Shown here: positions 42,712 through 45,145 of the stretch, in pieces | How positions within the stretch are numbered: position 1 is the stretch's first letter | Layout of the letters: each line of letters starts with the position of its first letter | From: an uncultured Planctomycetaceae bacterium | GTDB taxonomy: Bacteria > Planctomycetota > Planctomycetia > Planctomycetales > Planctomycetaceae | NCBI GenBank assembly: GCA_963815195.1 | Contig: CAWFGE010000013.1 | Span: forward strand, 448,001 to 512,000 | Direction: 5' to 3' | Length of the DNA stretch: 64,000 nucleotides | Notes under the pieces: model-generated | What the model was told of the DNA's origin: nothing | Database searches by the model: none | What the model saw: only the letters and a program-made list of their open reading frames with translations | Made by a program: the position numbers and the translations under genes

Positions 42712-43056
42712 AAAGTCCTTATGAGTTAGCAGCGGTTCAGAAATTAGCCGCAGGGCGCTAGCCTGGGCTGTTAAAAAATTGGTATTGAAGTCTAAAAACG
42801 CGGGTTCTGGCTTGCGCCACCTTTGTTCTCGTTTTTTTGGAAAGCATTAGGGCCGAAGGCCCGGCTCTCTGTCAGCCCAGGGCCAGCGCAGCGCCGCCCT
42901 GGGTTACGGATGATCCATGAAACGCAAGCCCCACGGGGGCGGCCCCTCTCGCCACGGAACAAGGCATCGCGCATTTCCGATTTCGGGCCGCCCCGTTGGG
43001 GCTTCGGCATTTTGCTCGTTCCCGTTCCCAGGGCTGCGCCCTTATAGGATTTGCTG

Positions 43057-43360
43057 AGGGATGGATCGGCCGCGGGAGAGGGCGGGGGGACGCAAGTCTC
43101 TCCCCACGGACTCTTCCGCGCCGGAGCCGATCCAGCGCCGTTTTTTTCCTGTTTTTCCAGCCCCAACTTTGAGAGGATCAAAATCAGGCACGCGTCGCCC
43201 CGCTACGAATCGTGCGCCCCATCGCTTCAACGATTGAGCCCAGACTTTCGAGCGGGACGATGCTCTTGGGAACCAACGAATCACTCCAGATGATGACGCC
43301 AAAACGTCTCGGACTATAAGGTTTTCGCCCGCTCCCAAGATCGCGTGCCCTTTTTGATTG
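43057..43360 (+). ncRNA. IS110 bridge RNA
   Basis: 5' hairpin 43062-43134; target loop with TGCGCCC (43213-43219) and AGCCCAG (43237-43243); donor loop with CAGATG (43287-43292) and CTATAAG (43314-43320). Confidence 0.8.
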
Positions 43361-43389
43361 TGTTTCACTTTAACAGGAGACGATCCCCC

Positions 43390-44673
43390 ATGCACTCGAA
43401 TTTGCTCGACCCCAATGCCTGTGTGCTGATCGGCCTCGATTGGGCCGACCGCGAACATGCCGTCTGCCGGCTGCTTCCCGACGGCGGAACCGAACACCGG
43501 CAACTCGAACACACGCCCGAAGCGATTGCCGACTGGCTCGCCGGCCTGCGGAAGCAATTCCCCGGTCGCCCGATTCGGATCGCGTTGGAGCAAAGCCGCG
43601 GCGCGCTGATGAACGCGCTCCGCCGTTTCGCCGACCTGGAACTCGAACTGTATCCCATCAATCCCAAGCAGCTGGCCCGCTATCGGGACGCGATTCATCC
43701 TTCGGGAGCGAAATCCGATCCAGACGATGCGCAGCTCTTGGCCCGCTTTCTGCAAAACCATCAGGAGCAACTCCTCCCGTTCGTGGCGGACGATCCCGAA
43801 ACCCGCCGCCTGGCCGAGTTGTCCGAACTTCGCCGCAAGCTGGTCGATGACCGCAAAACCCTTGTGCAGAAGCTCGAAGGCACGCTCAAGCTGTATTTTC
43901 CGCAACTGCTCGAATGGTGTGCCGGCAAGAGTCGCCAACCCCTGTTGCTCGCCGTGCTTCGCCGCTGGCCGAGCTTGGGCGATCTTAAGCGGGCTCATCC
44001 CAAAACGCTGCGCACGTTCCTCGCCGAGCATGGCCTGCGGAACCCCGACCAGCAAACCGAGTGGATCGACAACGTCCGCCCCGCCACCCCGTTGACCGAG
44101 GATGCCAGTTTGATCGAACCCCGCGCGATGTACGCCCAAAGTCTCGGCCGGCAAATCGAGGAACTGAACGAGGCCATTGCCAAATTCGAGAAGCAACTGG
44201 ACGAGGCGACCACCGCGCATCCCGACCACGAACTGTTCCGCTCGCTGCCCGGTGCCGGCGACGTCCTCACGCCGCGACTCATCGTGGCGATGGGCTCCGA
44301 CCGGGACCGCTACCAAGACGCCGGGGACGTGCAATCCAAAAGCGGCATCGCCCCGATCACCAAGCAAAGCGGGAAGACCCGGCTCGTGTTGTCGCGAATC
44401 GCCTGCCCCAAATTTCTCCGGCAGACATTCCACGAGTTCGCCGACCAGGCCCGCCGCTGGAGCGATTGGTCCCGAGCGTTCTATCAAATGAAACGCGCGG
44501 CCGGCATGAGCCACCACGCCGCGGTCCGCGCCTTGGCCTTCAAATGGATTCGCATCATCTTTCGGATGTGGCAAACCGGCACCCCTTACTCGGAAATGAA
44601 GTACCAGGAACAACTCACAATCAGAAACAGCCCCGTCTGGAATTTATTGGAAACAACAACAGAAACCACCTGA
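43390..44673 (+). CDS. IS110 DEDD recombinase/transposase
   Basis: RBS AGGAGA; IGLDWA, IALEQ, KSDPDDA (DEDD); LPGAG, GIAPITKQSG; no frameshift. Confidence 0.95.
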   Translation: MHSNLLDPNACVLIGLDWADREHAVCRLLPDGGTEHRQLEHTPEAIADWLAGLRKQFPGRPIRIALEQSRGALMNALRRFADLELELYPINPKQLARYRDAIHPSGAKSDPDDAQLLARFLQNHQEQLLPFVADDPETRRLAELSELRRKLVDDRKTLVQKLEGTLKLYFPQLLEWCAGKSRQPLLLAVLRRWPSLGDLKRAHPKTLRTFLAEHGLRNPDQQTEWIDNVRPATPLTEDASLIEPRAMYAQSLGRQIEELNEAIAKFEKQLDEATTAHPDHELFRSLPGAGDVLTPRLIVAMGSDRDRYQDAGDVQSKSGIAPITKQSGKTRLVLSRIACPKFLRQTFHEFADQARRWSDWSRAFYQMKRAAGMSHHAAVRALAFKWIRIIFRMWQTGTPYSEMKYQEQLTIRNSPVWNLLETTTETT

Positions 44674-44680
44674 AACCCAC

Positions 44681-44686
44681 TTGAAA
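44681..44686 (+). promoter_or_regulatory. -35 box of the IS110 circle-junction promoter
   Basis: TTGAAA; after circularisation at CT it lies 17 bp from TAGGAT (43045-43050). Confidence 0.8.
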
Positions 44687-45145
44687 AAACCTCAGATGTC
44701 TGGGCTGACATCGGGCCGGACCTTCGGCCCTTTTTCTCAAATTTGAAACAGTTGAATTTACGAACGGTCGAAAAGCTGCGCAAAGACAAATCGTCGTCAA
44801 CACCAAATTTTTAAGGGCCCAGCGCTAGCCCCGGTTCACTGGGATAACCGGACGCTAGCACATTCCGGCTGTGATTGAAAAGTTGCCTGGATGAGCCGCA
44901 GGGCGCTACCGTGAAACAAAACTCCTACTAAAAAGTGTAGCGGGGCTTGATGAAGATACAATGAACGGGGTGCAAAGAGTTCGTCAAACCCCCGGGGCGG
45001 CGAAATGACCAATGAATGAATGACCAAAACTTGAAACATGCAACTGGAAACTGCCGGACAACGGATACGGACCAATGGCAGAATCCGCCGGATTTGCTAC
45101 ATTGCCGGGGGATTGTCTCTCTTGGTCCTTTTGCTTTGAATTGCC

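What the first reader, a model, noticed from the sequence alone, without database searches (positions are those of the whole stretch)
43180..43360. Readable IS110 bridge RNA whose guides match its own REP target and donor junction
Seen: the reconstructed target is ...GCTGCGCC-CT-GGGCTG and the circle junction is ...TCAGATGT-CT-TATAGG. The left end has two internal-loop hairpins. Loop 1 (closed by CGCTACGAA/TTCGAGCG) carries TGCGCCC (43213-19, equal to left target + core C), a hairpin ATCG-cttcaa-CGAT, then AGCCCAG (43237-43, exact reverse complement of CTGGGCT). Loop 2 (closed by TCTTGGGA/TCCCAAGA and CGAA/TTCG) carries CAGATG (43287-92, left donor), a hairpin GACG-ccaaaa-CGTC, then CTATAAG (43314-20, exact reverse complement of CTTATAG). 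GGCACGCG/CGCGTGCC (43187-94/43342-49) encloses both loops. Known: IS621 uses this target-loop/donor-loop layout for RNA-guided recombination. Inference: this is a planctomycete bridge recombinase with 7-nt right guides and could be reprogrammable. The left donor guide is imperfect next to the core.
Basis: partly seen in the sequence, partly recalled or inferred. Interest (0 to 1): 0.9.

Follow-up and report, generated by a model that had tools for sequence, protein, structure and literature searches.

The report
Bridge RNA of an IS110 element
A small jumping gene in this bacterial genome carries its own guide RNA whose loops spell out both the site it inserts into and its own ends, a recently discovered and already well-described mechanism, so this is a clear new example, not a new principle.

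Summary

- **Element:** window 43043-44701 is a 1,659-bp IS110-group insertion sequence. It sits in a REP-like hairpin and has five copies in the genome.
- **Boundaries:** an intact empty site confirms the ends and the CT core.
- **Protein:** the 427-aa product matches both IS110 Pfam domains and NCBIfam "IS110 family RNA-guided transposase".
- **RNA fold:** a covariance model finds the same two-loop RNA upstream of the gene in 34 orthologue loci at 31-61% protein identity. All six helices covary.
- **Guides track flanks:** the left target guide equals the left flank 6/6 in 15 of 29 loci. The right guide equals the right flank 5/5 in 21 of 26. Mismatched locus pairs give 0 of 800 and 0 of 630.
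- **Further known features:** handshake positions and a circle-junction promoter also follow the published rules.

Differences from IS621 are modest. A conserved outer helix closes both arms with a 3-nt linker, the 5' stem-loop is longer, and the left donor guide has a bulge.

Expression and activity are untested. New member of a known kind; interest about 0.35.

The parts
43031..43040 (+). Left target flank. The last 6 nt, TGCGCC (43035-40), are the left target read by the LTG. The flank is part of the REP-like hairpin CCCAGGGC-TGC-GCCCTGGG.
   Evidence: The empty site folds as a DNA hairpin.
43041..43042 (+). Core dinucleotide CT at the left junction.
   Evidence: There is a single CT in the empty site and one CT at each junction of all 5 copies.
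43043..43389 (+). Left non-coding end (LE, 347 nt) of the element.
   Evidence: A long LE with a short RE is the IS110-group pattern.
43045..43050 (+). Predicted -10 hexamer TAGGAT of the circle-junction promoter. It pairs with the -35 in the RE at a 17-nt spacing across the core.
   Evidence: TTGnnn-16/17-TAnnnT is present in 21 of 24 reconstructed junctions and 0 of 24 integrated states. Expression was not tested.
43062..43134 (+). Long 5' stem-loop of the LE transcript.
   Evidence: Centroid fold of 43056-43362. Most orthologues show a long hairpin at the same place. The IS621 consensus also starts with a 5' stem-loop.
43141..43156 (+). U-rich linker (T7 and T5 runs) after the 5' stem-loop. 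It looks like a terminator but is not conserved.
   Evidence: The terminator scan did not flag it.
43187..43193 (+). Outer helix P1, 5' strand. It pairs with 43343-43349 and, in the window, extends to 43176-83 with 43351-59.
   Evidence: 6 of 7 pairs carry compensatory changes. Own duplex energy is -12.25 against -6.23 kcal/mol for cross pairs. Fold.
43195..43260 (+). Target-binding arm (TBL): a stem, an internal loop and a distal hairpin at 43221-34.
   Evidence: helices 2 and 3. The loop strands are hypervariable among orthologues.
43213..43219 (+). Left target guide UGCGCCC. It equals the top strand of LT (6 nt) plus the core C.
   Evidence: Covariation is 15 of 29 perfect and 20 of 29 at 5 or more of 6, against 0 of 800 cross pairs.
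43237..43243 (+). Right target guide AGCCCAG. It is the reverse complement of CT plus GGGCT.
   Evidence: Covariation is 21 of 26 perfect against 0 of 630 cross pairs.
43244..43245 (+). TBL handshake guide AC. It is complementary to donor positions 7 and 6 (GT) and not to target positions 6-7 (CC).
   Evidence: TBL-HSG1 pairs with donor p7 in 25 of 27 loci; pairing with its own target occurs in only 1 of 29.
43264..43340 (+). Donor-binding arm (DBL): outer stem 43264-71/43333-40, inner stem 43277-80/43324-27 and distal hairpin 43295-308.
   Evidence: helices 4-6. The loop strands are conserved among orthologues.
43284..43292 (+). Left donor guide CUC(C)AGAUG. It equals the top strand of RE CTCAGATG with one bulged C. 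The two following nt (AU) do not match donor position 7 or the core.
   Evidence: The extra nucleotide is shared by the 7 closest sequences. LD position 7 is mismatch tolerant in IS621.
43314..43320 (+). Right donor guide CUAUAAG. It is the reverse complement of CT plus TATAG.
   Evidence: Variant RDGs (CTGTAAG, GTATAAG, CTATAGG) find their matching LE starts upstream.
43321..43322 (+). DBL handshake guide GU. Its G is complementary to target position 7 (C).
   Evidence: DBL-HSG1 pairs with target p7 in 28 of 29 loci (G:C 22, C:G 4, A:T 2), against 59% for cross pairs.
43343..43349 (+). Outer helix P1, 3' strand.
43390..44673 (+). IS110-family recombinase gene (427 aa), with an AGGAG ribosome-binding site at 43375-79.
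   Evidence: PF01548 at 3.7e-25 and PF02371 at 8.8e-14. NF033542 scores 171.8 bits against a cut-off of 140. D17, E67, D110, D113 and S327 align with the IS621 catalytic residues.
44674..44699 (+). Right non-coding end (26 nt). It holds the -35-like TTGAAA (44681-86) and the left donor CTCAGATGT (44691-99).
44700..44701 (+). Core dinucleotide CT at the right junction.
44702..44709 (+). Right target flank GGGCTGAC. Its first 5 nt are read by the RTG.

Best explanation
Window 43043-44701 is an apparently intact IS110-group insertion sequence. Its left end encodes a bridge RNA.

**Proposed cycle**
1. The element excises as a circle. Joining the right end to the left end creates a sigma-70-type promoter, with -35 TTGAAA in the RE and -10 TAGGAT in the LE, 17 nt apart across the CT core.
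2. Transcription from that promoter yields a 5' stem-loop, a U-rich linker, a two-armed guide domain closed by an outer helix, and then the recombinase mRNA.
3. [quoted passage not shown] 4. In the donor arm, CUC(C)AGAUG and CUAUAAG do the same for the element's own joined ends.
5. The 3' neighbours of the right guides (AC and G) are handshake positions. They pair with the other DNA after the first strand exchange.
6. The DEDD/Ser recombinase exchanges strands at the CT core. This places the element into the descending arm of a REP-like hairpin.

**Shown here:** the sequences, the complementarities, helix covariation, guide-flank covariation, the site specificity of five copies, and conservation of the catalytic residues.

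**Inferred from IS621:** transcription, RNA-protein binding, the order of strand exchange, and activity.
For: - **Motifs:** all are at the stated coordinates.
- **Copies:** five copies in the genome share identical junctions and an identical RNA region. Two of them have intact ORFs.
- **Empty site:** it has a single CT.
- **Site specificity:** all 5 insertions rebuild the perfect 13-mer, of which only 2 empty copies remain. The 17 sites with one left-target mismatch, 13 of them in the same repeat by my own count from the listing, are intact.
- **Protein:** it matches PF01548 and PF02371, scores above the NF033542 cut-off, and aligns to IS621 and ISCro4 chains with D/E/D/D/S conserved.
- **Orthologue RNAs:** model R1 finds a full-length homologous RNA upstream of the gene in 34 orthologue loci at E <= 2.6e-6.
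- **Helix covariation:** 96.8% of cells are paired, against 68.1% in shuffles and 32.5-40.7% in slid controls. Compensatory changes occur in 36 of 40 pairs.
- **Guide-flank test:** LTG is 15/29 perfect and RTG 21/26 perfect, against 0/800 and 0/630 for cross pairs.
- **Core covariation:** the core variant CC covaries with GG in both right guides.
- **Handshake rule:** 28/29 and 25/27 pair as predicted, while pairing with the loop's own DNA is avoided at 1/29 and 2/27.
- **Junction promoter:** present in 21/24 reconstructed circles and 0/24 integrated states.
- **Published mechanism:** read.
Against: - No expression data: no RNA run was listed for this sequence, and no promoter-like site was found in the integrated sequence.
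- A GC-rich hairpin followed by T-runs (43062-43156) lies between the predicted junction promoter and the guide domain. It could terminate part of the transcripts.
- The left target guide does not match the second core base. The left donor guide matches neither donor position 7 nor the core, unlike the IS621 description in which the core is included in all four pairings.
- The LTG test missed in 9 of 29 loci at 4 or fewer of 6. At least three of those look like register shifts of my fixed extraction (L009, L030, L033), and one is a doubtful boundary (L064).
- Element boundaries in orthologues were called from the donor guides. Donor-guide agreement is therefore partly circular; the target-guide test is not.
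- The alignment used for pair counts was fitted to the model's structure.
- Three of the five copies carry frameshifts or a 301-nt deletion.
Confidence: 0.9

Rival explanations
1. The structured left end is a cis-regulatory 5' leader of the transposase mRNA, acting in translation or stability control or as a protein-binding site. On this view the matches to the flanks are coincidental and no RNA guides anything.
For: The RNA lies directly upstream of the ribosome-binding site and start codon. Structured leaders that limit transposase translation are known in the IS110 family; an earlier scan note, e1-105925, described one in another genome. No expression or binding data exist here.
Against: The loop strands change with the flanks across orthologues while the stems stay fixed. 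Cross-pair controls give 0/800 and 0/630 perfect matches. Handshake positions covary with the non-cognate DNA. A leader-only function predicts none of this.
Confidence: 0.03
2. The guide RNA is real, but this lineage is a decaying, no longer mobile element. Its RNA-target matches would then be fossils of past insertions.
For: Three of five copies have a frameshift or a 301-nt deletion. The junction -35 is TTGAAA, not TTGACA, and the -10 is TAGGAT. A terminator-like hairpin with T-runs precedes the guide domain. One REP copy and one non-REP copy of the perfect 13-mer remain empty.
Against: Two copies (window and C18) are full length, differ by one base and keep an open 427-aa frame with all catalytic residues. 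The RNA region is identical in all five copies. The flanks differ beyond the target, so these are separate insertions.
Confidence: 0.1
3. The functional RNA is only the closed two-arm domain (about 43176-43359), made from its own promoter or by processing. The 5' stem-loop plus T-runs would then be an insulator or terminator that blocks read-through from outside, not part of the bridge RNA.
For: The hairpin at 43062-43134 is followed by T7 and T5 runs. The 5' stem-loop is dispensable for IS621 RNA binding and was omitted from its structure. T-runs also follow the hairpin in L024 and L047.
Against: No sigma-70-like site was found between 43135 and 43186. The T-runs are absent from most orthologues. 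The junction promoter is conserved, and a long 5' hairpin recurs in most orthologues, as in the published consensus.
Confidence: 0.2

Closest known systems
IS621 bridge recombinase and bridge RNA (E. coli; Durrant et al. 2024, PMC11208160; Hiraizumi et al. 2024, PMC11208158)
   Same: - Same two protein domains and the same catalytic D/E/D/D/S residues.
- RNA encoded in a long left end.
- A 5' stem-loop, then a target loop, then a donor loop.
- The 5' loop strand equals the top strand and the 3' strand is its reverse complement.
- CT core.
- Handshake positions 3' of both right guides.
- Promoter rebuilt at the circle junction.
- The donor loop is more conserved than the target loop.
   Different: - Only distant in sequence: the PDB chain matches at E 1.4e-7 and mainly over the C-terminal domain.
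- The protein is 427 aa, against a 328-residue IS621 chain.
- The two arms are closed by a conserved outer helix with a 3-nt linker, where IS621 has an open 11-nt linker.
- The 5' stem-loop is about 73 nt, against 33 nt.
- The right target guide is 5+2 nt, where wild-type IS621 has G77-G80.
- The left guides do not cover the whole core.
- The left donor guide carries a bulge.
ISCro4 / IS622 (Citrobacter rodentium; Perry et al. preprint 10.1101/2025.05.14.653916; PDB 9t56)
   Same: This is the best solved-structure match by sequence (E 1.3e-9). The overall system is the same.
   Different: The scaffold differences are the same as for IS621. IS622 was chosen for activity in human cells, and nothing is known about activity of the present element.
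ISPpu9 and ISPpu10 of Pseudomonas putida (PMC12288879, seen only in the search listing; preprint 10.64898/2026.03.19.712850, abstract read)
   Same: These are IS110-family elements with several identical copies. All are inserted in one conserved repetitive extragenic sequence that forms a GC-rich stem-loop.
   Different: The host phylum and the repeat family differ. Whether the hairpin itself adds specificity here, as reported for ISPpu10, was not tested. Here the insertion point lies inside the 3' arm of the hairpin.
IS1111 group / seekRNA elements
   Same: The same recombinase family and the same RNA-guided principle.
   Different: IS1111 elements carry the RNA in a long right end and have 7-17-bp subterminal inverted repeats. 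Here the right end is 26 nt and the RNA lies in the left end.

Membership tests
IS110 family, IS110 group (bridge-RNA-guided recombinase elements) | [quoted passage not shown] | tested here: met
   PF01548 at 3.7e-25 over residues 14-171. D17, E67, D110 and D113 stand at the aligned IS621/ISCro4 positions. The N-terminal alignment to IS621 is weak on its own (3.0 bits).
IS110 family, IS110 group (bridge-RNA-guided recombinase elements) | C-terminal Tnp domain (PF02371) with the conserved serine | tested here: met
   PF02371 at 8.8e-14 over residues 281-366. S327 in KQSGK aligns with the SG of IS621.
IS110 family, IS110 group (bridge-RNA-guided recombinase elements) | Curated whole-protein model | tested here: met
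   NF033542, 'IS110 family RNA-guided transposase', scores 171.8 bits against a cut-off of 140.
IS110 family, IS110 group (bridge-RNA-guided recombinase elements) | Site-specific insertion centred on a short core, with no further target duplication | tested here: met
   There is one CT at each junction in all 5 copies and a single CT in the empty site.
IS110 family, IS110 group (bridge-RNA-guided recombinase elements) | Long left end and short right end, with the RNA in the left end | tested here: met
   The LE is 347 nt and the RE is 26 nt. The RNA model hit lies at 43183-43353.
IS110 family, IS110 group (bridge-RNA-guided recombinase elements) | Structured RNA with two stem-loops, each carrying an internal loop, supported by covariation | tested here: met
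   Fold. Compensatory changes in 36 of 40 pairs, with 96.8% paired against 33-41% when slid. The alignment was fitted to the model.
IS110 family, IS110 group (bridge-RNA-guided recombinase elements) | Loop strands complementary to target and donor under the top/bottom strand rule, covarying across orthologues | tested here: met
   Window matches. LTG is 15/29 and RTG 21/26 perfect, against 0/800 and 0/630 cross pairs. Variant donor guides find matching ends.
IS110 family, IS110 group (bridge-RNA-guided recombinase elements) | Handshake guides pair with the non-cognate DNA and avoid the cognate DNA | tested here: met
   Non-cognate pairing in 28/29 and 25/27 loci; cognate pairing in 1/29 and 2/27. 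The rule was read.
IS110 family, IS110 group (bridge-RNA-guided recombinase elements) | Promoter reconstituted across the RE-LE junction of the circle | tested here: met
   This is a pattern match only. TTGnnn-16/17-TAnnnT occurs in 21/24 junctions and 0/24 integrated states. No transcript data.
IS110 family, IS110 group (bridge-RNA-guided recombinase elements) | RNA is expressed, binds the recombinase and is required for recombination | not testable with these tools
   No RNA run was listed. This needs bench work.
IS621/IS622-type bridge RNA scaffold | TBL and DBL are independent stem-loops joined by an unpaired linker of about 11 nt, with no closing helix | tested here: not met
   Here a 7-bp or longer outer helix encloses both arms, with a 3-nt linker. 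It is conserved in 34 orthologues. The IS621 layout was read.
IS1111 group | Guide RNA in a long right end, with 7-17-bp subterminal inverted repeats | tested here: not met
   The RE is only 26 nt and the RNA is in the LE. The definition was read.
Any Rfam 15 family | Match at the gathering score | tested here: not met
   Only two sub-threshold chance-level hits appeared at 43070-43127, and none over the guide domain.

The most novel reading that the evidence does not exclude
This clade spans Planctomycetota, Acidobacteriota, Gemmatimonadota and a few Proteobacteria. It may use a distinct closed bridge-RNA scaffold: a conserved outer helix and a 3-nt linker lock the target and donor arms into a three-way junction.

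In IS621 the two loops of one synaptic complex come from two different RNA molecules and work even when split. A locked junction could impose a different stoichiometry or geometry. For example, it could enforce a fixed pairing of arms across two RNAs, or allow one RNA to serve both DNAs.

The outer helix plus the U-rich tract could also set the RNA's ends and its ratio to transposase mRNA.
Probability: 0.2. Interest if true: 0.5.

Novelty: new member of a known kind. Interest (0 to 1): 0.35.

Why it matters
The finding adds a cleanly readable, naturally diverse bridge-recombinase clade from soil and aquatic phyla that are far from the enterobacterial model systems.

- **Natural reprogramming on one scaffold:** 26 distinct left and 20 distinct right target guides, plus a CT-to-CC core switch, sit on one conserved scaffold. 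This gives a natural reprogramming table for choosing or engineering orthologues.
- **A testable structural variant:** the closed three-way-junction scaffold and the bulged left donor guide can be tested directly.
- **Genome biology:** it explains why five copies sit in one variant of a REP-like hairpin while single-mismatch variants of that hairpin are untouched.

It does not change the known mechanism.

Tried and rejected
- **Rfam:** nothing matched over the guide domain. Only sub-threshold RAGATH-31 (24.1 bits against 71.8) and mir-3155 hits appeared on the tip of the 5' hairpin, and I treat them as chance.
- **RNA runs:** no RNA holder was listed.
- **Promoter scan of the integrated sequence:** 0 sites found. 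I considered an internal promoter at 43135-43186 by eye and saw nothing convincing. TTGAGA at 43169-74 is not at a conserved distance in G228.
- **3' U-run as a conserved terminator of the RNA:** rejected. It is present in the window and a few loci but not generally.
- **First alignment:** the window versus G228 alignment (A1) was not used for the model, because MAFFT shifted the donor stem by one column.
- failed on a one-base frame slip and was corrected.
- **Earlier scan notes:** nothing was found near the finding, by sequence, or on this topic. One note on another element's transposase leader did not bear on this case.
- **Literature searches:** no paper was found for bridge RNA together with Planctomycetes or Planctomycetota, or for bridge RNA with three-way junction and IS110. 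This covers the held library only.
- **Supplements:** the supplementary tables of Durrant et al. list thousands of predicted bridge RNAs. I did not open them, and they may already contain members of this clade.

Full report
**Observation.**
- The left junction is GGGCTGCGCC (43031-40), CT (43041-42), TATAGG (43043-48).
- The right junction is CAGATGT (44693-99), CT (44700-01), GGGCTGAC (44702-09).
- Within 43187-43349 lie TGCGCCC (43213-19), AGCCCAG (43237-43), CAGATG (43287-92) and CTATAAG (43314-20), together with the stems and small hairpins described.
- RNAfold of 43180-43360 returns exactly this layout: two internal-loop hairpins inside an outer stem. The MFE is -63.1 kcal/mol and z is -3.9, and none of 200 shuffles folds as well.

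**The element.**
- The ORF 43390-44673 encodes 427 aa with PF01548 (3.7e-25) and PF02371 (8.8e-14).
- It scores 171.8 bits on NCBIfam NF033542, "IS110 family RNA-guided transposase", above the 140-bit cut-off.
- Against solved structures it matches ISCro4 (9t56, E 1.3e-9) and IS621 (8wt6, E 1.4e-7).
- D17, E67, D110, D113 and S327 stand at the aligned catalytic positions. The N-terminal part of that alignment is weak.
- The left end is 347 nt and the right end 26 nt, which is the IS110-group pattern and not the IS1111 pattern.

**Copies and target.** The genome (8.87 Mb, 25 contigs) holds five copies. All have the same two junctions, while the flanks diverge further out, so they are separate insertions into one repeat family.
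- The RNA region is identical in all five copies.
- The window and C18 copies differ by one base and keep the open frame.
- The C15 copy has a 1-nt insertion. The C19 copy has a 2-nt deletion and substitutions. A second C13 copy has a 301-nt deletion (part of that output was cut).
- An uninterrupted 20-mer target exists once, in the same repeat context, and carries a single CT.
- As DNA it folds into CCCAGGGC-TGC-GCCCTGGG, so the element enters the 3' arm of a REP-like hairpin.
- Of 1,318 genomic CTGGGCT sites, only 2 intact ones have the perfect left target.
- Another 17 have one left-target mismatch, 13 of them in the same repeat by my own count from the listing. All five insertions rebuild the perfect 13-mer.

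**Orthologues and RNA structure.**
- A protein search of 401 genomes of the phylum found 12 with a match, the window's own genome included.
- A scan of genome contigs gave 50 loci at 31-61% identity. By record title they come from Planctomycetota, Acidobacteriota, Gemmatimonadota and a few Proteobacteria.
- A covariance model was built from the window's copies with my hand-written structure. It found a full-length match just upstream of the gene in 34 orthologue loci (E from 6e-28 to 2.6e-6), plus 4 weak hits that I dropped as spurious.
- On the clean 35-row alignment, 96.8% of cells pair, against 68.1% in shuffles and 32.5-40.7% with partners slid. Compensatory changes occur in 36 of 40 pairs, and all six helices are supported.
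- That alignment is fitted to the model, which favours the structure. As a check on the outer helix, own 5'/3' segments form duplexes of mean -12.25 kcal/mol (34 rows), against -6.23 for 1,054 cross pairs.

**Guide-flank covariation.**
- The target-loop strands are hypervariable between conserved stems. The donor-loop strands are nearly constant, as published for IS110 elements.
- I called element ends from the donor guides only.
- The reverse complement of the 7-nt right donor guide occurs exactly in 28 of 35 rows, always 77-217 nt upstream of the model hit. Three of the 7 misses are cut by contig ends.
- Variant guides (CTGTAAG, GTATAAG, CTATAGG) find correspondingly variant ends.
- With ends fixed this way, the independent target test gave the following. 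The 6 non-core nt of the left target guide equal the left flank in 15 of 29 loci, and 5 or more of 6 in 20 of 29. The 5 non-core nt of the right target guide equal the right flank in 21 of 26, and 4 or more of 5 in 23 of 26.
- Guides paired with other loci's flanks were perfect in 0 of 800 and 0 of 630 cases.
- Rows without a flank, because of contig ends or no boundary, were left out: 6 on the left and 9 on the right.
- Several misses are register shifts of my fixed extraction (L009, L030, L033) or a doubtful boundary (L064).
- A Vicinamibacterales-rich subclade and L033 use a CC core, and both right guides there carry GG in place of AG.

**Handshake guides.** Hiraizumi et al. (passages read) showed that the two bases 3' of each right guide pair with positions 6-7 of the other DNA after strand exchange and must not pair with their own.
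- In the window, AC (43244-45) complements donor GT. The G at 43321 complements target C7.
- Across loci, the donor-loop base pairs with target position 7 in 28 of 29 (G:C 22, C:G 4, A:T 2), against 59% for cross pairs.
- The target-loop base pairs with donor position 7 in 25 of 27.
- Pairing with the loop's own DNA is seen in 1 of 29 and 2 of 27.

**Expression signals.**
- Joining right and left ends in silico gives TTGnnn-16/17-TAnnnT across the core in 21 of 24 loci that have both ends. It appears in 0 of 24 when the left flank is used instead.
- Where the -35 sits 2 nt closer to the core, the -10 shifts from TATAGT to TAGnnT, which keeps the 17-nt spacing.
- In the window the hexamers are TTGAAA (44681-86) and TAGGAT (43045-50).
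- This agrees with the published junction promoter.
- The transcript would start near 43056. It folds into a long 5' stem-loop (43062-43134), a U-rich linker, and the closed guide domain.
- Most orthologues also have a long 5' hairpin.
- No promoter-like site was found in the integrated sequence.
- Transcription itself remains unshown.

**Comparison with the known.** The mechanism is that of IS621 as described by Durrant et al. (sections 5, 6, 7, 10 and 12 read) and Hiraizumi et al. (passages). Bridge RNAs were predicted there for 85.7% of IS110-group elements, and REP targets were noted. The differences I can document are these:
1. A conserved outer helix and a 3-nt linker enclose both arms, where IS621/IS622 have an open linker of about 11 nt.
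2. The 5' stem-loop is much longer.
3. The left target guide covers only the first core base, and the left donor guide covers none. The base next to the core is mismatched, which fits the mismatch-tolerant LD position 7 of IS621.
4. The window's subclade has one extra guide nucleotide, so CUC(C)AGAUG pairs with CTCAGATG with a bulge.
5. The protein is about 100 residues longer.

The held library has no paper combining bridge RNA with Planctomycetes or Planctomycetota, or with three-way junction and IS110. I did not open the supplementary tables of Durrant et al., which may list this clade.

**Verdict.** It is a new member of a known kind with a modest scaffold variant. Interest is 0.35.

Noticed in passing
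window 42990-43042 and 44702-44740; genome-wide: The insertion site belongs to a composite REP-like intergenic repeat. Its parts are a small hairpin with T-run, the target hairpin CCCAGGGC-TGC-GCCCTGGG, and then CTGACA plus a terminator-like hairpin GGGCCGGACCTTCGGCCC-TTTTT (44713-30, flagged). CCTGGGCTGACA occurs 51 times in the genome and GCCGGACCTTYGG 40 times.
   Followed up: partly
window 42874-42905 (reverse strand) and genome-wide: A second repeat subfamily shares the right half ...CCCTGGGCTGACA but has a different left half (GGCGGCGCTGCGCTTGCCCT and variants, at least 25 copies). These sites match the core and right target perfectly without the left target, and none carries the element.
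   Followed up: partly
window 43141-43156: T7 and T5 runs directly after the GC-rich 5' stem-loop look like an intrinsic terminator between the predicted junction promoter and the guide domain. Similar T-runs occur in L024 and L047 but not in most orthologues. A possible attenuator; untested.
   Followed up: partly
L048, L036, L055, L041, L064, L052, L050 (Vicinamibacterales and Acidobacteriota records) and L033: This subclade uses a CC core in place of CT, with GG in both right guides. It also has a longer left end (172-217 nt before the guide domain) and an enlarged donor-loop hairpin.
   Followed up: partly
L012 (G244:C879), positions 100-411: An orthologue at 34% protein identity, in another family of the same phylum, has the same right target guide (AGCCCAG). 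It sits after CAGGGCTTCGCC-CT, a variant of the same REP-type hairpin. That variant also occurs in the window's genome.
   Followed up: no
G000 C13:264244 (- strand): A perfect 13-mer target lies outside any REP context and is unoccupied. The other empty perfect site is in REP context at C12:900517. This may bear on whether the hairpin contributes to target choice.
   Followed up: no
window 43077-43114: A sub-threshold Rfam hit to RAGATH-31 (24.1 bits, gathering score 71.8, E 0.12) falls on the tip of the 5' stem-loop. It is most likely chance.
   Followed up: no
reconstructed circle junctions of 24 loci: There are two promoter registers. TTGACx with TATAGT occurs when the -35 ends 15 nt before the core. 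TTGxxx with TAGnnT occurs when it ends 13 nt before the core. Both keep a 17-nt spacer.
   Followed up: partly
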